Shown here: piece after piece, positions 6-4,472 of the stretch | How the letters are laid out: every line of letters begins with the position of its first letter | Numbering within the stretch: the stretch's first letter is position 1 | Source: a virus | Lineage: Duplodnaviria; Heunggongvirae; Uroviricota; Caudoviricetes | Reading direction: 5' to 3' (one strand) | Virus record (IMG/VR): IMGVR_UViG_2531839179_000010 | DNA: 4,472 nt | Position numbers and translations under genes: made by a program | The notes under the pieces: generated by a model | Told to the model about the DNA's origin: nothing | The model's database searches: none | The model's input: only the letters and a program-made list of their open reading frames with translations

Positions 6-82
6 TGGCCCACCTCCGAGGACTCGAACCTCGCACCGTCAACTTAGAAGGTTGATGCTCTATCCGGATGAGCTAGTGGTGG
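6..82 (-). tRNA. tRNA-Arg (anticodon UCU), phage-borne argN/argU-like
   Basis: Reverse complement folds as a 77-nt cloverleaf: acceptor CCACCAC/GAGGTGG (one A.A mismatch at 6-67), D-arm GCTC-ATCCGGATA-GAGC, anticodon stem TCAAC/GTTGA with loop CTTCTAA (anticodon TCT), variable loop CGGTG, T-arm CGAGG-TTCGAGT-CCTCG, discriminator G, encoded CCA (plus-strand TGG at 6-8). Layout parallels E. coli argU as I recall it. Confidence 0.8.
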
Positions 83-83
83 T

Positions 84-160
84 TGGTGGCCCTTGCTGGA
101 CTTGAACCAGCGACCTGGCGATTATGAGTCGCTCGCTCTGACCAACTGAGCTAAAGGGCC
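84..160 (-). tRNA. tRNA-Ile2 (anticodon CAU, lysidine-type), ileX/ileZ-like
   Basis: Reverse complement GGCCCTTTAGCTCAGTTGGTCAGAGCGAGCGACTCATAATCGCCAGGTCGCTGGTTCAAGTCCAGCAAGGGCCACCA: perfect 7-bp acceptor GGCCCTT/AAGGGCC, anticodon loop CTCATAA, T-loop TTCAAGT, encoded CCA. Closely resembles E. coli ileX as recalled, not initiator or elongator Met. Only 1 nt (pos 83) separates it from the Arg tRNA. Confidence 0.8.
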
Positions 161-272: not shown

Positions 273-349
273 CTTTCAAATGTCCATGTCTGCTATTCGC
301 CTCGCGGTACAGCTTTGCGAAGCGTACAAGAATTGAAGCAGTTTTTACG

Positions 350-904
350 TCAAAAAGCAATAACTTTTTTCTCTATACCAAAAGCCATAACTATTGGTTT
401 GTACAAAATAAATTCTGCCACCTTTAGCCAATGCTCAATGCGTCTTTCACAGGTTCTTAAACTCCATTTCGGGTGTGCATCATTCAGCAGTTCAGCCATT
501 TTGCGTTTGGTCATCCCCCGCCCCTCATACCGTTGCCGAAGGACGCTAATCAATCCTGGATGCTCTGCCAGCACCTCACTTATGACCCGATCAATACATA
601 ACGCCTCTGCATCAGTACAATGCGCCAGCCAGCTCTTTTGCTTACCGTTAATCATATCCCGCAAAAAAGCCTCAAGTTCAGACTTGTTCAGACCTGCTTT
701 TTTCATCCTCCGGAGCGCCTCGTTAATTGCCGTTTTTGTCAGCTTTTTAGAGGTCAACATCAGGTTAAACATATTCCCCGTCTTACCGCCACCAATATAC
801 GACCAGCGCCCCCACATACGTAGTTTTCCCTGAATCCAGACACTTTCCAGCGTGGTGAGACGAAGGTGTTCTCCGCTTTTTCCTGTATTCGTTGGGTAAA
901 TCAT
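350..904 (-). CDS. Late-gene antiterminator Q (Q82/Q933-type family), 184 aa
   Basis: ORF-track frame 350..1024, trimmed to the ATG at 904-902, which has a strong SD (AAGGAGGG, 7 nt upstream) and overlaps the upstream stop (ATGA). N-terminal motif LRMWGRW...GNMFNLMLTSK parallels the LERWGAW...LITSK motif of Stx-phage Q as recalled. Position (after nin-like genes, before tR' and tRNAs) fits Q. Confidence 0.65.
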   Translation of the reverse strand: MIYPTNTGKSGEHLRLTTLESVWIQGKLRMWGRWSYIGGGKTGNMFNLMLTSKKLTKTAINEALRRMKKAGLNKSELEAFLRDMINGKQKSWLAHCTDAEALCIDRVISEVLAEHPGLISVLRQRYEGRGMTKRKMAELLNDAHPKWSLRTCERRIEHWLKVAEFILYKPIVMAFGIEKKVIAF

Positions 905-1191
905 AAATATCCCTCCTTTCTCCAGATTTCTTGTGTGCGAAAAACACCTTCTGCATGCATCAGGCGTAATTCTTCTTTGGTGTAATCGCTGGTTTTTACC
1001 CGCCCGTCGATTAAATCGTGGCACGAGCTACAGGCAATCGCTGCCTGCATATCGTGTGGCTTTATCGCTGTTCCGCACGTTCCCGCCAGTCGGTAATGCG
1101 CCAGCACAGACGTTTCCGGATCGTGATTGCAGTAGCCAGGAATTCTGACGGTGCACATCTGCCCCCGCGCCGCTTTAAGTAAATCCACCAT
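901..1191 (-). CDS. YbcO-like DUF1364 family protein (putative Zn-binding nuclease of lambdoid nin regions), 96 aa
   Basis: 96-aa ORF with Cys pairs (CTVRIPGYC...; ...ACSSCHDLIDGR), same length as E. coli DLP12 YbcO. SD GGAG 8 nt upstream; start overlaps the upstream stop (TAATG). Confidence 0.65.
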   Translation of the reverse strand: MVDLLKAARGQMCTVRIPGYCNHDPETSVLAHYRLAGTCGTAIKPHDMQAAIACSSCHDLIDGRVKTSDYTKEELRLMHAEGVFRTQEIWRKEGYL

Positions 1192-1790
1192 TACGCAAAC
1201 TCCAGCAGCTGCGCGGCCACATTTTCGACTTGTTCCGGAGAGGAAAATTTACGGAACAGAATCCAGTTCCACAGCACATTCAGTACAGATTTATAAACCT
1301 GCTGAAACTCGGTTTCGTCCATATTCGCAAACGCGATAGATTTCGCCCGACACCCACGGCTACCGTCCGGATAAAAATGCTCGGTGTAAAATCCGGCCTG
1401 AATGGCTACCCACTCGCGGAAAGCCTCAAACGACTTTAGCAATGCCGTATCACGGGTTCTGCGTGTCGCAACTGTATTCAGATATTGCTCTGCGGCTTCG
1501 CTCAGAGCTGGCGTATGTTCCCGGCCTACTAATTCACACAGGTAATCAACGAAACCGGACACCAGTTTTCGTTCGCGAGGCGTGATCGCCCCACCGACCG
1601 GAGTCCAGTAATCGAAACCCAGTTGCAGGAGTTTGAAAAAACGCTTGTGGAATGCGTAGTTACGCACACGCTTAAAGTCTGCGTGTATCCACTCACCTAT
1701 TTTGATTTGATGCAGAAAATCGCAACTCTCCGGCGTCGCCGGGAGAAGTAATCCGGAAGAGGTTTGTTTGACCAGTTGTATATGTGCCAT
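1191..1790 (-). CDS. DUF1367-like conserved lambdoid phage protein, 199 aa
   Basis: ORF-track frame 1191..1832, trimmed to the ATG at 1790-1788 (MAHIQLVKQ...) preceded by SD GGAGAAAG. About 200 aa and immediately upstream of a DUF1364 gene, as typical for DUF1367. Family assignment is from memory; the CDS itself is well supported. Confidence 0.6.
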   Translation of the reverse strand: MAHIQLVKQTSSGLLLPATPESCDFLHQIKIGEWIHADFKRVRNYAFHKRFFKLLQLGFDYWTPVGGAITPRERKLVSGFVDYLCELVGREHTPALSEAAEQYLNTVATRRTRDTALLKSFEAFREWVAIQAGFYTEHFYPDGSRGCRAKSIAFANMDETEFQQVYKSVLNVLWNWILFRKFSSPEQVENVAAQLLEFA

Positions 1791-1828
1791 CGGCTTTCTC
1801 CGGTGGCACGGTGTTACACAGCAGGAGT

Positions 1829-2116
1829 TCAATCCTGCTCAAGATTGTAGATGAGTTTATTCTTCAGCAAAAGCAGAAAACCAGCCTTAAAACCAATCTC
1901 TTTCAAAACCCGTAATGATGTGACAAATTCGTCCTCACGCAAAATAAAACCGTCCGTCAGAAGTCCATTACAAAAATAAAATAACACAGCACCGCTCTTC
2001 CTTTGTTGAGATTGCAAACATCTAATGCGGCAATGGCTGACAATCGCTCCATTCTCAACGCGCACAGCATAGAGGCCATTTTCACTAAAAATTTCACGCA
2101 ATTCTTCGATTTTCAT
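1829..2116 (-). CDS. Hypothetical protein, 95 aa (first gene of the nin-like operon)
   Basis: Intact ORF with ATG at 2116-2114 preceded by GGAAGGA SD-like sequence; no recognisable motif. Ends 38 nt upstream of the DUF1367-like start. Confidence 0.55.
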   Translation of the reverse strand: MKIEELREIFSENGLYAVRVENGAIVSHCRIRCLQSQQRKSGAVLFYFCNGLLTDGFILREDEFVTSLRVLKEIGFKAGFLLLLKNKLIYNLEQD

Positions 2117-2197
2117 CTTCAGAATCCTTCCAGATAAATAGCTCTCCCCTGTTCGGGGTCCATCCCTCTTCTCCCTGCGCGCTACTTAAGTGAGTCG

Positions 2198-2225
2198 ATT
2201 CTATCTGCGAAGGTGCGCGAATCAA
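2198..2225 (-). promoter_or_regulatory. Candidate sigma70 promoter for the 95-aa/DUF1367/YbcO/Q operon
   Basis: Minus strand TTGATT (2225-2220), 16-nt spacer, TAGAAT (2203-2198); immediately downstream of the hok terminator and about 80 nt upstream of the 95-aa ORF. Confidence 0.3.
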
Positions 2226-2235
2226 ATTCACCGGA

Positions 2236-2290
2236 AATAAACAACAAAAAACCCGCCGAAACGCTGAGAGATCACAGCGATGGGCGGGTT
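2236..2290 (-). terminator. Intrinsic terminator at the 3' end of the hok mRNA
   Basis: Minus strand: AACCCGCC (2290-2283), inner hairpin CGCTG/CAGCG, GGCGGGTT (2257-2250), then UUUUUUGUUGUUUAUUU. Lies about 75 nt downstream of the hok stop. Confidence 0.6.
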
Positions 2291-2365
2291 AAGTGCGGGT
2301 GCGTTGAGGATGCCTGACACATCAGAGGTGGGCGGGGATGGGATCAGCTCCCCGCCCGGTCACTC

Positions 2366-2521
2366 TTACTTCCTGGATTCGTAGTCTACGAAGACAGCGA
2401 CCTCCGTCTGGCCGGTTCGGATTCGTACCTCACAGAGGTCTTTCCTCGTTACCAGTGCCGTCACTATGACGGTTAAACAGATGACGATCAGGGCGATTAA
2501 CATCGCCTTTTGCTGCTTCAT
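2366..2521 (-). CDS. hok: Hok family type I toxin (HokD/RelF-like), 51 aa
   Basis: Translation MKQQKAMLIALIVICLTVIVTALVTRKDLCEVRIRTGQTEVAVFVDYESRK is near-identical to E. coli HokD/RelF as recalled (single TM helix, conserved Cys). SD AAGGAG 9 nt upstream of the ATG at 2521. Confidence 0.9.
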   Translation of the reverse strand: MKQQKAMLIALIVICLTVIVTALVTRKDLCEVRIRTGQTEVAVFVDYESRK

Positions 2522-2578
2522 AGCCTGCTTCTCCTTGCCTTTCGGCATGTAAGAGGCTAACCTACATGTGCAAAGCAT
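2366..2578 (-). CDS. mok: mok-like reading frame (in-frame 19-codon N-terminal extension of hok, as in chromosomal mokC), 70 aa
   Basis: In-frame upstream ATG at 2578 gives the leader MLCTCRLASYMPKGKEKQA, similar to the MokC N-terminus (MLNTCRVPLTDRKVKEKRA) as recalled. SD GAGG lies 9-10 nt upstream, where a Sok antisense RNA would pair. Confidence 0.55.
   Translation of the reverse strand: MLCTCRLASYMPKGKEKQAMKQQKAMLIALIVICLTVIVTALVTRKDLCEVRIRTGQTEVAVFVDYESRK
2544..2572 (+). promoter_or_regulatory. Candidate sok promoter (antisense to the mok start region)
   Basis: Plus strand TTGCCT (2544-2549), 17-nt spacer, TAACCT (2567-2572); predicted start near 2579, reading into the hok leader. Position corresponds to the sok promoter in plasmid R1 hok/sok. 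Confidence 0.35.
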
Positions 2579-2650
2579 GAAATTGGCCTCAGATTAATGT
2601 TAAGCGTCTTGCCGGACGCGTAATGTTAACTGGGGCTTTTCTCTATCTGC
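2579..2650 (+). ncRNA. sok: Sok-like antisense RNA (antitoxin of the hok/mok/sok system); boundaries approximate
   Basis: Inferred from the hok/sok architecture: the plus-strand transcript from the candidate promoter would be complementary to the mok SD and leader (2579-2650). The 3' end is not defined; a hairpin GCGTC-ttgccg-GACGC at 2603-2618 with a weak T-rich tail is one candidate. Confidence 0.35.
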
Positions 2651-2697
2651 CTTTTGGTGTTCATGCCTGAAGCAGATAGCCTCAAGCACCCGCAGTC

Positions 2698-2727
2698 ATT
2701 CTACTTACCTCGCCAATATGAAATCAA
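2698..2727 (-). promoter_or_regulatory. hok/mok promoter
   Basis: Minus strand TTGATT (2727-2722), 18-nt spacer, TAGAAT (2703-2698). Predicted start near 2693-2691, at the 5' fold-back element GCGGGUGCUUGAGG, which resembles the 5' end of R1 hok mRNA. Confidence 0.5.
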
Positions 2728-2748
2728 TCAGAAAGGTGCCCCATAAAA

Positions 2749-3435
2749 TCACTCCTTCTCTTCTTTACCGTAGTGGAGTTGACCAATTTTGATAAGAGGG
2801 CGTCCCTGAGATTTGCGGTGTAGATTGGTATCGCGCAGAGAATACACACAGCCACAATATTCCTGCTGATAGAATTTTTCGCGCTTGCTGATTTCAATCA
2901 TACGGGACGAGCCGCCCTGCTTGCGCCAGTTATAATCCCAGTACACCATGCCCGGATAATGCGCGACGGCTCGCCGCCCACAGTCGTTAACCTGCTGCAT
3001 ATTTTTCCAGCGTGAAATGCCCAGTGAACTGCTGATCACACTGAAACCATTTTCAGCGGCGTACAGCGCTGTCCGCTCAAAACGCATGTCAAAACACATG
3101 GTGCAACGGATCCCTCGTTCGGGCTCCCATTCCATTCCTTTGGCTCGTTCAAACCAGTTGTCTGTGTCGTAATCAGCATCAATAAACGGCACGCCGTGTT
3201 GTTCAGCAAAGCGAATATTCTCATCCTTACGAATTAAATACTCTTTCTGAGGATGAATGTTCGGGTTGTAGAAAAAGATGGTGTAGTCGATTCCCGAGGC
3301 CTGAAGCGCCTCCATCACCTCACCGGAACATGGAGCACAGCAAGAGTGCAGTAGTAGTTTGTTTGCCCCGTTTGGGAGCTCCAATTTGGGCCGTTTGAAA
3401 TCAGCAACTGTCATAAATATGTTTATTGGGGTCAT
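2749..3435 (-). CDS. QueH-like (DUF208) putative epoxyqueuosine reductase, 228 aa
   Basis: Intact 228-aa ORF with the N-terminal motif [11 protein letters not shown], which I recognise as the DUF208/QueH Fe-S signature, plus further conserved-looking Cys/His/Asp ([16 protein letters not shown]). Start ATG at 3435 has no obvious SD, so the start is uncertain (second ATG 7 codons in). Confidence 0.6.
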
Positions 3436-3582
3436 AAAAATATCAAAGAGTGTAGCATTAGAACGGGGCTATCGGAAACAGATGTGTGACTGCTCCCCGC
3501 CCTTTCGGGCGGTCTCCTGATGATTTGAGGGTGCAGAAATCCCTCCGGTTAAGGATTAAATTTTTAACAGTGCTAAATTTAA

Positions 3583-3939
3583 TTATTCAGTTCTGGATTT
3601 TGTCGCCCTGCGTATCCGCGCTTTCGCGTTACGCTCAATCTGTATCAGCTTTTCTATATTTCTCCGCCTTTCCTGTTCCTCCTGGCGCAATAGCCTTACA
3701 TCATCTGCCAGTCTGGTTTCTCTTTTTGCCACAGAGAGCATCCAGTCAAACGGCTCCACAACCGCACCGCAGATTTTACAGCGGACCTGACGCTCTTTTT
3801 CGTCAACCCGTACAGAGGCGTGATGGCAATATGGTCTTTCCGATGGATCATAAAGAAAATTAACCTGATTACGAGGGTCATCCTCTTTTACCGGAAATAA
3901 AACAATATTACTTAACTCATCTTCTGGTTTTATTTCCAC
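3583..3939 (-). CDS. Hypothetical zinc-ribbon protein with basic C-terminal helix, 118 aa from GTG (129 aa from TTG at 3972)
   Basis: ORF-track frame 3583..3972; preferred start is GTG at 3939-3937 with SD AAGGAG (3951-3946) 6 nt upstream. Contains C-H-H...C-x-I-C (PYCHHASVRVDEKERQVRCKICG) and an Arg/Glu-rich C-terminal region. No family recognised. Confidence 0.55.
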   Translation of the reverse strand: MEIKPEDELSNIVLFPVKEDDPRNQVNFLYDPSERPYCHHASVRVDEKERQVRCKICGAVVEPFDWMLSVAKRETRLADDVRLLRQEEQERRRNIEKLIQIERNAKARIRRATKSRTE

Positions 3940-3940
3940 G

Positions 3941-4000
3941 TCACTCTCCTTTGATGCGAATGCCTGCGGCAATTAGTGCCTGATAACTAATTTCACTCAC
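3941..4000 (-). CDS. Candidate 19-aa leader/small ORF (VSEISYQALIAAGIRIKGE) upstream of the zinc-ribbon gene
   Basis: GTG at 4000-3998 preceded by strong SD AGGAGGTGG (7-nt spacer). Its stop TGA (3943-3941) lies 1 nt before the downstream GTG and its last codons contain the downstream SD. Confidence 0.25.
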   Translation of the reverse strand: MSEISYQALIAAGIRIKGE

Positions 4001-4124
4001 AGTACCACCTCCTGAAAATTACCCTGATAGAAAGCCAGTACACGCTGCATAACTTCGCTTTTACGACACTCAGTACAAATTATATTATGACGCCTGTCGT
4101 AACGACGTATTTCTCCGTCAGGTA

Positions 4125-4452
4125 TGAGGTAGCCTGAGTTTAACGGACACTCCTTCCTGAAATAGAATGGCATCAGAAGGAGCTAATAATGAGCAGAAAA
4201 ACCCAACGTTACTCTAAAGAGTTCAAAGCCGAAGCTGTCAGAACGGTTCTTGAAAATCAACTTTCGATCAGTGAAGGCGCTTCCCGATTATCCCTTCCTG
4301 AAGGCACTTTAGGACAATGGGTTACCGCCGCCAGAAAAGGGCTCGGTACTCCTGGTTCCCGCACGGTGGCTGAACTGGAATCTGAAATTCTGCAACTGCG
4401 TAAGGCGTTAAATGAAGCTCGCCTTGAGCGAGATATATTAAAAAAAAGCAAC
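4125..4452 (+). mobile_element. IS3-family insertion sequence (IS600-like), left end only; truncated by an IS30-like insertion
   Basis: Left terminal repeat begins TGAGGTAGCCTGAGTTTAACGGACAC at 4125, 64 bp upstream of orfA. IS sequence stops at about 4452 where IS30-like terminal sequence begins. Confidence 0.65.
4189..4452 (+). pseudogene. IS3-family transposase OrfA (IS600-like), 3'-truncated
   Basis: Translation MSRKTQRYSKEFKAEAVRTVLENQLSISEGASRLSLPEGTLGQWVTAARKGLGTPGSRTVAELESEILQLRKALNEARLERDILKK matches IS600 OrfA as recalled (HTH plus leucine zipper). It ends in the A-run frameshift window (4440-4447) and then diverges into IS30-like sequence. Confidence 0.7.
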
Positions 4453-4472
4453 TGTAGATTCAATTGGTCAAC
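4453..4472 (+). mobile_element. IS30-like terminal inverted repeat (element continues beyond the window)
   Basis: TGTAGATTCAATTGGTCAAC matches the IS30 terminal repeat as I recall it; it begins exactly where the IS600-like orfA reading frame loses similarity. Confidence 0.5.

What the first reader, a model, noticed from the sequence alone, without database searches (positions are those of the whole stretch)
2236..2727. Apparently complete hok/mok/sok type I toxin-antitoxin locus with all regulatory hallmarks
Besides a Hok ORF near-identical to HokD/RelF, the locus retains an in-frame mok extension, a promoter, a candidate antisense sok promoter over the mok SD, a 5' stem-loop CUAUCUGC...GCAGAUAG (2650-2686), 5'/3' fold-back complementarity (5' GCGGGUGCUUGAGG at about 2693-2680 against 3' CCUCAACGCACCCGC at about 2309-2295, 14 of 15 with one bulge) and an intrinsic terminator. 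Chromosomal hok loci in K-12 are often inactivated, so an intact copy inside a prophage could act in prophage stabilisation or abortive infection.
Basis: partly seen in the sequence, partly recalled or inferred. Interest (0 to 1): 0.55.

Follow-up and report, generated by a model that had tools for sequence, protein, structure and literature searches.

The report
Intact hokW-type hok/mok/sok toxin-antitoxin locus
This is a complete copy of the well-known hok/sok killer-gene module, in which a small membrane toxin is kept silent by an antisense RNA, sitting in a lambda-like prophage of Shigella/E. coli; it is nearly identical to the studied hokW-sokW locus, so it is ordinary.

Summary
On the minus strand, 2727-2243 carries a full hok/mok/sok type I toxin-antitoxin locus:
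- a promoter
- tac at the 5' end, with metastable and stable 5' hairpins
- ucb paired to the mok Shine-Dalgarno
- mok (2578-2366) in frame with hok (2521-2366)
- a 3'-UTR hairpin, fbi, and a terminator
- a convergent Sok gene on the plus strand

Evidence:
- Rfam RF01794 scores 117 bits (gathering 59).
- Pfam Hok/Gef scores 80 bits.
- The full-length RNA folds with tac/fbi closed (z = -9.1).
- Across 18 homologues, from R1 to Photorhabdus and Erwinia, the tac/fbi and metastable helices stay paired (89% and 95%) with coupled compensatory changes.

- Hok is closest to HokW of phage 933W/Sp5 (50/51), not K-12 HokD (46/51).
- The 5' stem-loop lies at 2643-2679, not 2650-2686.
- The Sok promoter (TTGCCT 2535-2540, TAACCT 2558-2563) lies over the early mok codons and the dcb box, just upstream of the hok SD. 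It is not over the mok SD.
- Sok starts near 2570, not 2579.

hokW/mokW/sokW is annotated in the GenBank record of phage 933W (AF125520) and was shown to work as a type I system in 2021. NCBI's pipeline already names this gene. The finding is already known and of low interest. Its role in this IS-disrupted prophage is untested.

The parts
2698..2727 (-). hok/mok promoter: -35 TTGATT (2727-2722), 18-nt spacer, -10 TAGAAT (2703-2698). The start is inferred at G2691, six nt after the -10, aligned with the start of the R1-type hok leader.
   Evidence: Consensus scan. The -10 is conserved in 933W. The 5' end aligns with the Rfam model start and with the R1-type locus.
2243..2691 (-). Predicted full-length hok mRNA, about 446-449 nt.
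   Evidence: MFE fold -195.4 kcal/mol, z = -9.1. Family alignment A2.
2680..2691 (-). tac (translational activator) element, GGGUGCUUGAGG. It can pair with fbi, with the adjacent downstream arm (metastable hairpin), or with ucb.
   Evidence: Element definitions from PMC9841398.
2664..2688 (-). Metastable 5' hairpin of the nascent transcript, UGCUUGAGGC-UAUCU-GCUUCAGGCA. It sequesters tac during transcription.
   Evidence: The first 30 nt fold this way, -14.9 kcal/mol. 95% of cells are paired in 18 homologues, with 3 covarying pairs.
2643..2679 (-). Stable 5' stem-loop CUAUCUGCUU...AAGGCAGAUAG of the full-length mRNA.
   Evidence: Helix 2: 90.6% paired, 3 covarying pairs.
2632..2640 (-). ucb (anti-SD) box AAAAGCCCC. 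It pairs with the mok SD in the full-length RNA. Its complement forms the U-tract of the Sok terminator.
   Evidence: Helix 5: GC/CG pairs kept in 17-18 of 18 sequences. Invariant columns.
2535..2563 (+). Sok promoter: -35 TTGCCT (2535-2540), 17-nt spacer, -10 TAACCT (2558-2563).
   Evidence: The hexamers are identical in 933W sokW, with one spacer difference. Primers YO-421/422 of PMC8621323 replace exactly this -10 to make the promoter-less sokW construct that becomes toxic. The geometry matches the R1-type locus, TTGCGC-17-TATCCT. The consensus scan did not find it, because the -10 matches only 3 of 6.
2570..2643 (+). Sok antisense RNA, about 71-74 nt. It has a 5' single-stranded tail (2570 to about 2578), a long hairpin and a UUUUCUCU tail. 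It is complementary to the mok start codon, the mok SD and the leader up to ucb.
   Evidence: Transfer of the sokW feature of AF125520. Fold -30.2 kcal/mol, z = -4.8.
2586..2589 (-). mok Shine-Dalgarno GAGG, 7 nt upstream of the mok AUG.
   Evidence: Sequence. Paired to ucb in the fold.
2366..2578 (-). mok ORF (70 aa). It is in frame with hok and shares its stop codon.
   Evidence: MokW of 933W differs at 3 of 70 residues: 2 in the leader and 1 in the Hok part.
2553..2557 (-). dcb box GCCUC. It is complementary to the mok SD region GAGGC and overlaps the Sok promoter spacer and -10 on the other strand.
   Evidence: Sequence. Invariant GCCTCTTAC block in all 18 homologues. Definition in PMC9841398.
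2366..2521 (-). hok toxin gene (51 aa, MKQQKAMLIALIVICLTVIVTALVTRKDLCEVRIRTGQTEVAVFVDYESRK), with SD GGAG at 2534-2531.
   Evidence: Pfam PF01848, 79.9 bits. 50/51 identical to HokW. PGAP annotates it as HokD, WP_014532198.1.
2331..2358 (-). 3'-UTR hairpin GGGCGGGGA...UCCCCGCCC. It is the expected protective 3' end of the processed (truncated) mRNA.
   Evidence: A hairpin is present at this place in all homologues, with different loop and stem details. The role of the equivalent R1 hairpin is described in PMC9841398.
2297..2309 (-). fbi (fold-back inhibition) element CCUCAACGCACCC. It pairs with tac, with one bulged C.
   Evidence: Helix 1: 89.3% paired. Column 4/426 shows UA in 10, CG in 6 and UG in 2 sequences.
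2243..2290 (-). Intrinsic terminator: 8-bp stem AACCCGCC/GGCGGGUU closing a 23-nt loop with an inner 5-bp hairpin, then U6 (2251-2246).
   Evidence: Fold -22.8 kcal/mol, z = -5.1. Relatives carry the compact form AACCCGC-UUCG-GCGGGUUUUU at the same place.

Best explanation
The region 2727-2243 is an intact hok/mok/sok type I toxin-antitoxin locus of the HokW/HokD subtype. It lies in the nin region of a lambdoid prophage, between queH and a rem-like gene and upstream of the Q antiterminator.

The mechanism below is inferred by homology with plasmid R1 hok/sok and with hokW-sokW.
1. The hok promoter makes a stable mRNA of about 450 nt.
2. While it is being transcribed, the 5' tac element is held in a metastable hairpin.
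3. In the finished RNA, tac pairs with fbi near the 3' end and ucb covers the mok ribosome-binding site. The RNA is then neither translated nor bound by Sok.
4. Slow 3' trimming back to the 3'-UTR hairpin removes fbi. tac then pairs with ucb, and the mok SD opens.
5. In cells that still make the short-lived, convergently transcribed Sok RNA (about 71 nt, from 2570), Sok pairs across the mok start region and the duplex is destroyed.
6. If Sok supply stops, mok is translated, hok is translated by coupling, and the 51-aa Hok peptide damages the inner membrane.

Shown here: every sequence and structure element is present, and the structures are conserved with covariation. Inferred: transcription, processing, Sok instability, toxicity and the biological role.
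For: - Rfam RF01794 gives a full-length match at 117 bits against a gathering score of 59.
- Pfam Hok/Gef scores 79.9 bits.
- The DNA is 92% identical to the annotated hokW/mokW/sokW locus of 933W, and 89-91% identical over more than 80% of the query to four sequenced temperate Escherichia phages.
- Hok differs from HokW at 1 of 51 residues.
- HokW is toxic and sokW neutralises it. Mutating the sokW -10, which is the same TAACCT found here, restores toxicity (PMC8621323).
- The full-length fold closes tac/fbi and ucb/mok-SD, and the nascent 5' end forms the metastable hairpin.
- In alignment A2, 81.5% of 2276 cells are paired, against 37-43% when the partners are slid by 1-3 columns, and 41 pairs change on both sides.
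- Column 4 of tac covaries both with fbi (UA/CG) and with the metastable partner (UA/CG).
- tac/fbi lies at a constant distance from the stop codon in almost all of the 35 related loci where a tac-like 5' end was found.
Against: - No expression or toxicity data exist for this allele.
- The Sok -10 is a poor consensus match (3 of 6), and the promoter scan missed it.
- The MFE fold of the truncated RNA keeps the metastable hairpin and does not form tac/ucb. An R1-type control does the same, so this is uninformative rather than negative.
- The terminator carries an unusual 23-nt loop whose efficiency is unknown.
- The Hok C-terminus has E49R relative to HokW, with unknown effect.
- Chromosomal hokA, hokB and hokC loci failed to mediate post-segregational killing in earlier work, as cited in bioRxiv 10.1101/2025.08.07.668861. 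Structural intactness therefore does not guarantee activity.
Confidence: 0.9

Rival explanations
1. The locus is structurally intact but has no killing or stabilising activity in its host. It is carried along as a passenger of a decaying prophage and kept silent by its own Sok RNA, or by Sok RNAs from sibling copies.
For: - Earlier tests of chromosomal hokA/B/C loci found no post-segregational killing, as summarised in bioRxiv 10.1101/2025.08.07.668861.
- The prophage is disrupted by an IS3-family element at about 4126 in the window, and by IS1 in a near-identical genome.
- The matching S. flexneri genome carries at least three hok loci of this subtype with almost identical Sok stem-loops.
Against: - All regulatory elements are preserved without a single disabling change. 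The window and S. flexneri differ at 3 of 1552 positions.
- The closest characterised relative, hokW-sokW, is active.
- The Sok 5' tails of the sibling copies differ at most positions, which argues against cross-silencing.
Confidence: 0.2
2. The locus is a decayed remnant, like K-12 hokD or the IS-disrupted hokA/C/E, and only looks complete.
For: The terminator loop carries an insertion of about 24 nt that is rare in E. coli genomes.
Against: - Promoter, tac, ucb, the mok SD and ORF, the Sok promoter and terminator, the hok ORF, the 3' hairpin and fbi are all present.
- They align without frameshift or truncation to 933W.
- The terminator stem and U-tract are intact.
- K-12 hokD shows what real decay looks like: the whole 5' leader is replaced.
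Confidence: 0.03
3. Role variant: in this prophage the module works mainly as a lysis accelerator on induction, as reported for hokW-sokW in Sp5, and not as a stabilisation or abortive-infection device.
For: PMC8621323 reports that sokW RNA disappears after mitomycin C in a RecA-dependent way, that HokW appears about 1 h before the endolysin, and that deleting the locus halves phage release.
Against: - The genomic position differs. Here the locus is in the nin region, whereas hokW in 933W sits at the far right end of the genome.
- This prophage carries IS insertions and may no longer be inducible.
Confidence: 0.3

Closest known systems
hokW/mokW/sokW of Stx2 phage 933W and Sakai prophage Sp5 (GenBank AF125520; Takada et al. 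2021, PMC8621323)
   Same: - 92% DNA identity from the -10 of the hok promoter to fbi.
- Hok 50/51 and Mok 67/70 identical.
- The same tac, ucb, dcb and fbi, and the same Sok -35 and -10 hexamers.
- The same Sok stem-loop.
   Different: - The Sok 5' tail and mok start region differ (2586-2572).
- The 3'-UTR hairpin has a 7-nt longer loop region.
- A dedicated terminator follows fbi here, while in 933W the sequence runs straight into the ygiW-like gene L0136.
- The location is the nin region rather than the right end of the phage genome.
hokD (relF) of the K-12 cryptic prophage Qin
   Same: - The same position relative to rem and the Q antiterminator region.
- Hok 46/51 identical.
- fbi and the terminator stem are conserved.
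   Different: K-12 hokD lacks the promoter, tac, ucb, mok and sok, because relBE abuts the hok SD. The window has all of them.
hok/sok (parB) of plasmid R1 and related IncF plasmids
   Same: The architecture and folding pathway are the same: tac/fbi, a metastable hairpin, ucb/mok-SD, dcb, a convergent Sok with a 17-nt spaced promoter over dcb, and a terminator after fbi.
   Different: - The paper on hokW gives 44% protein identity between HokW and R1 Hok.
- The sequences of the leader loops and the 3' UTR differ.
- R1 is plasmid-borne and has a proven post-segregational killing role.

Membership tests
[quoted passage not shown] | Small Hok/Gef-family membrane toxin ORF (about 50 aa, conserved TRK..LCE..EVA..YE) | tested here: met
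   Pfam PF01848 at 79.9 bits against a cut-off of 22. 50/51 identical to HokW.
[quoted passage not shown] | Conserved structured 5' leader of the hok mRNA (Rfam RF01794; the model is on the hok-sense strand and ends at the hok AUG) | tested here: met
   117 bits against a gathering score of 59, model positions 1-157 of 157, at 2691-2516 on the minus strand.
[quoted passage not shown] | Overlapping mok leader ORF with its own SD, upstream of and reading into hok | tested here: met
   ATG at 2578, GAGG at 2589-2586, open to the hok stop codon. The mok AUG is conserved in the family alignment.
[quoted passage not shown] | Convergent antisense Sok gene covering the mok translation-initiation region, with its own promoter and terminator | tested here: met
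   At the sequence level only. The promoter hexamers are identical to those of sokW, and their mutation abolishes antitoxin activity. A hairpin plus U-tract is predicted. Transcription was not measured.
[quoted passage not shown] | Long-range tac/fbi pairing that closes the full-length mRNA | tested here: met
   Present in the MFE fold. The position is conserved in almost all of the 35 related loci examined. 89% paired, with 4 pairs that change on both sides.
[quoted passage not shown] | Metastable 5' hairpin that sequesters tac in the nascent transcript, with coupled covariation to fbi | tested here: met
   The 30-nt fold gives -14.9 kcal/mol. 95% paired. Column 4 covaries with column 29 and also with column 426.
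[quoted passage not shown] | Refolding of the 3'-processed mRNA into the open form (tac/ucb and mok-SD/dcb) | tested here: inconclusive
   The complementary boxes are present: 6 tac/ucb pairs with one internal U-C mismatch, as in R1. The MFE of the truncated RNA does not adopt this form, and neither does the R1-type control. The boxes are almost invariant, so covariation cannot be assessed.
[quoted passage not shown] | Stable toxin mRNA and unstable antitoxin RNA, RNase III cleavage of the duplex, and killing when Sok is lost | not testable with these tools
   Needs Northern blots, a rifampicin chase and toxicity assays. Shown for hokW-sokW in PMC8621323.

The most novel reading that the evidence does not exclude
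Here hok lies in the nin region and points the same way as the early rightward (pR) operon. On induction, antiterminated read-through from upstream could run head-on into the convergent sok promoter and also make 5'-extended hok transcripts. This would couple loss of Sok, and so release of Hok, directly to the lytic switch. Separately, the hypervariable Sok 5' tail (2586-2572) would keep the three or more sibling hok/sok copies in one genome from cross-silencing each other. Neither idea was tested here.
Probability: 0.15. Interest if true: 0.35.

Novelty: already known. Interest (0 to 1): 0.1.

Why it matters
It matters little beyond correct annotation. Genome pipelines label only the 51-aa ORF, as 'HokD', and leave mok, Sok and the RNA elements unmarked. 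This window shows what the complete form of the K-12 Qin hokD locus looks like. A recent survey finds hok genes about four-fold enriched in prophages (bioRxiv 10.1101/2025.08.07.668861). The one functional study of this subtype found help with lysis, not stabilisation. The biological role of nin-region copies in defective Shigella prophages is still open, but the locus itself adds no new kind of system.

Tried and rejected
- The consensus terminator scan found nothing in 2100-2900. Folding shows it.\n- The consensus promoter scan did not pick up the Sok promoter. I placed it by homology with sokW and the R1-type locus instead.\n- The MFE fold of the 3'-truncated mRNA did not reproduce the expected open tac/ucb form. 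An R1-type control failed in the same way, so I treat this as a limit of MFE prediction, not as evidence about the locus.\n- A single-sequence shuffle test of the tac duplex was only weakly significant (49 of 2000). I relied on family covariation instead.\n- I considered that the Rfam 'sok' hit on the minus strand meant Sok is encoded on the hok strand, and rejected it. The model consensus runs from the hok mRNA 5' end to the hok AUG, so it is the hok-sense leader.\n- I considered a second IS at the window's 3' end, and rejected it. The A8G run at about 4440-4449 is the usual IS3-family frameshift motif inside orfA, and the frame stays open.\n- I did not use the large protein-database searches or structure prediction. 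They could not add to a 51-aa toxin that is 98% identical to a characterised one.

Full report
**What is in the window**

All genes from 350 to 4170 lie on the minus strand and form the nin/Q region of a lambdoid prophage.

| Coordinates | Feature |
|---|---|
| 6-82 | tRNA-Arg(UCU) |
| 84-160 | CAU-anticodon tRNA |
| 350-904 | DUF1133/Q-like antiterminator |
| 901-1191 | YbcO |
| 1191-1790 | DUF1367 |
| 1829-2116 | 95-aa ORF |
| 2366-2578 | hok/mok |
| 2749-3435 | QueH |
| 3583-3939 | zinc-ribbon ORF |
| from about 3997 | DUF977 remnant |
| from about 4126 (plus strand) | IS3-family element |

- The 95-aa ORF is 68% identical to K-12 Rem.
- The window is collinear and virtually identical with 'E. 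coli' FDAARGOS_943 from about 300 to 3900.
- It differs at 3 of 1552 positions from Shigella flexneri SFBU1023. A Shigella or Shigella-like source is therefore likely.

**Checking the observation**

*Coding and promoter elements.*
- The Hok ORF (2521-2366) and the in-frame Mok extension from ATG 2578 are there.
- Pfam Hok/Gef scores 79.9 bits.
- A TTGATT-18-TAGAAT promoter lies at 2727-2698. Six nucleotides after it begins GGGUGCUUGAGG. This matches the first positions of the Rfam hok-leader model and aligns with the 5' end of the R1-type leader.
- Rfam RF01794 covers 2691-2516 end to end at 117 bits (gathering 59, E = 3.9e-27). The model is named 'sok', but it runs from the hok mRNA 5' end to the hok AUG, so it describes the hok-sense leader.

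*Folding.*
- The predicted transcript 2693-2243 folds to -195.4 kcal/mol against -139.9 +/- 6.1 for shuffles (z = -9.1).
- CUAUCUGC/GCAGAUAG forms a hairpin, but at 2679-2643, not 2650-2686.
- AAAAGCCCC (2640-2632) covers the mok SD.
- A GC-rich hairpin sits at 2358-2331.
- A terminator (2290-2250, then U6) closes the RNA.

**Placing Sok**

- GenBank AF125520 annotates sokW as 71 nt starting 8 nt inside mokW. Transferred through the alignment, this gives 2570 to about 2640 here.
- Primers YO-421/422 of Takada et al. replace TAACCT with GAGCCG to make the 'promoter-less' sokW. The same TAACCT is at 2558-2563, with TTGCCT 17 nt upstream.
- This mirrors TTGCGC-17-TATCCT in the R1-type locus.
- The promoter therefore lies over the early mok codons and the dcb box, just upstream of the hok SD. 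It is the RNA body that covers the mok SD and start codon.
- The 2570-2645 RNA folds into a short free 5' tail, a long hairpin and a U-rich tail (-30.2 kcal/mol, z = -4.8).

**Is the structure more than chance?**

- Alone, the tac duplex (-21.5 kcal/mol) is matched by 49 of 2000 shuffles of the rest of the transcript.
- I collected 47 related loci from reference genomes. Among the 35 loci (including the window and 933W) in which a tac-like 5' end could be found, the best 3'-UTR partner lies 45-56 nt after the hok stop in almost all of them. The exceptions are two or three apparently disrupted copies.
- Matched changes occur. For example, GGGUGCUUGAGG/CCUCAACGCACCC in Escherichia corresponds to GGGCGCUUGAGA/UCUCAAGCGCCC in Photorhabdus.
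- I aligned 18 transcripts, including an R1-type plasmid locus, Photorhabdus, Pantoea, Erwinia and Citrobacter, and projected the window's fold onto them.
  - 81.5% of cells are paired, against 37-43% for slid controls. 41 pairs change on both sides, and no shuffle reaches the observed covariation.
  - The tac/fbi helix is 89% paired. Column 4/426 shows UA in 10 sequences, CG in 6 and UG in 2.
  - The nascent 5' end folds into a different hairpin, 2688-2664 (-14.9 kcal/mol). It is 95% paired in the family.
  - The same tac column 4 covaries with that hairpin's partner, UA in 10 and CG in 5.
- One nucleotide covarying with two alternative partners fits the folding pathway described for hok mRNAs: a metastable hairpin first, then the closed tac/fbi form (PMC9841398).

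**The open, translatable form**

- The complementary boxes for tac/ucb (six pairs with one internal mismatch, as in R1) and for mok-SD/dcb are present.
- The MFE fold of an RNA truncated after the 3' hairpin keeps the metastable hairpin instead.
- An R1-type control does the same, so this says nothing specific about the window.

**What it is**

- The DNA is 92% identical to hokW/mokW/sokW of phage 933W. It is 89-91% identical over more than 80% of the query to four sequenced temperate Escherichia phages whose records annotate MokW or HokD.
- Hok differs from HokW at one residue (ESEK to ESRK), and the Mok leader at two.
- It is 46/51 identical to K-12 HokD.
- In K-12, the hok ORF, fbi and terminator remain, but everything upstream of the hok SD is replaced by relBE.
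- Together with the Rem-like neighbour, this makes the window the intact counterpart of Qin hokD.
- 4713 of 5426 complete E. coli genomes have a match, and 2130 have one covering at least 80% of the query. NCBI's pipeline already calls the ORF HokD.

**How it probably works, and what for**

- The mechanism in the best explanation is inferred from R1 (PMC9841398) and from hokW-sokW.
- For hokW-sokW, HokW is toxic, sokW from its own promoter neutralises it, and RNase III and Hfq contribute. sokW RNA vanishes after mitomycin C in a RecA-dependent way. HokW reaches the inner membrane about 1 h before the endolysin appears, and deleting the locus halves phage release (PMC8621323).
- The prophage here carries an IS insertion in its replication region, so a role in phage release may be moot.
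- A recent survey reports about four-fold enrichment of hok in prophages and leaves the function open.

**Verdict**

This is an ordinary member of a thoroughly described system, of a subtype that is already annotated and experimentally characterised.

Noticed in passing
window 2258-2282 (minus strand): The hok terminator loop carries about 24 extra nt (CCAUCGCUGUGAUCUCUCAGCGUU, with its own 5-bp mini-hairpin). K-12 hokD and most relatives have the compact AACCCGC-UUCG-GCGGGUUUUU form. Only 2 of 5426 complete E. coli genomes match this part. S. flexneri SFBU1023 has it with one base different, at 2276.
   Followed up: partly
window 2572-2586: Among closely related hok loci, including three copies in one S. 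flexneri genome, 11 of 15 columns vary in the Sok 5' tail and mok start region. The adjacent Sok stem-loop (2587-2631) varies at only 1-2 of 15. This pattern would keep co-resident Sok RNAs specific to their own hok mRNA.
   Followed up: partly
window 2381-2383 (A at 2382, minus strand): The Hok Tyr47 codon is UAC followed by G. UACGAA is invariant in all 18 aligned homologues. This corresponds to the position where hokC, hokD and hokE mRNAs are reported to be A-to-I edited, recoding Tyr to Cys (PMC12214031).
   Followed up: partly
window about 4126-4472 (plus strand): An IS3-family element begins at TGAGGTAGCCTGAGTTTAACGG. Its orfA starts at 4189 (HTH_Tnp_1, 73.8 bits) and has an A8G frameshift motif near 4440-4449. 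From memory it resembles IS600. It cuts off the N-terminal two-thirds of the DUF977 gene, which is intact in FDAARGOS_943.
   Followed up: partly
window 2198-2225 (minus strand): A second promoter-like site has the same hexamers as the hok promoter (TTGATT-16-TAGAAT). It lies just downstream of the hok terminator and upstream of the Rem-like ORF at 1829-2116.
   Followed up: no
window 6-160 (minus strand): Two phage-borne tRNA genes, Arg-UCU and a CAU anticodon. ARAGORN calls the second Met, while PGAP calls the equivalent gene Ile in FDAARGOS_943. They lie downstream of the Q-like gene. In FDAARGOS_943 an IS1 sits between them and the Q-like gene.
   Followed up: no
L001 (933W) 2453-2572: In 933W the sequence diverges right after fbi and runs into the ygiW-like gene L0136, with no terminator of the AACCCGC type. 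hokW mRNA 3'-end formation may therefore differ from that of the window and K-12.
   Followed up: no
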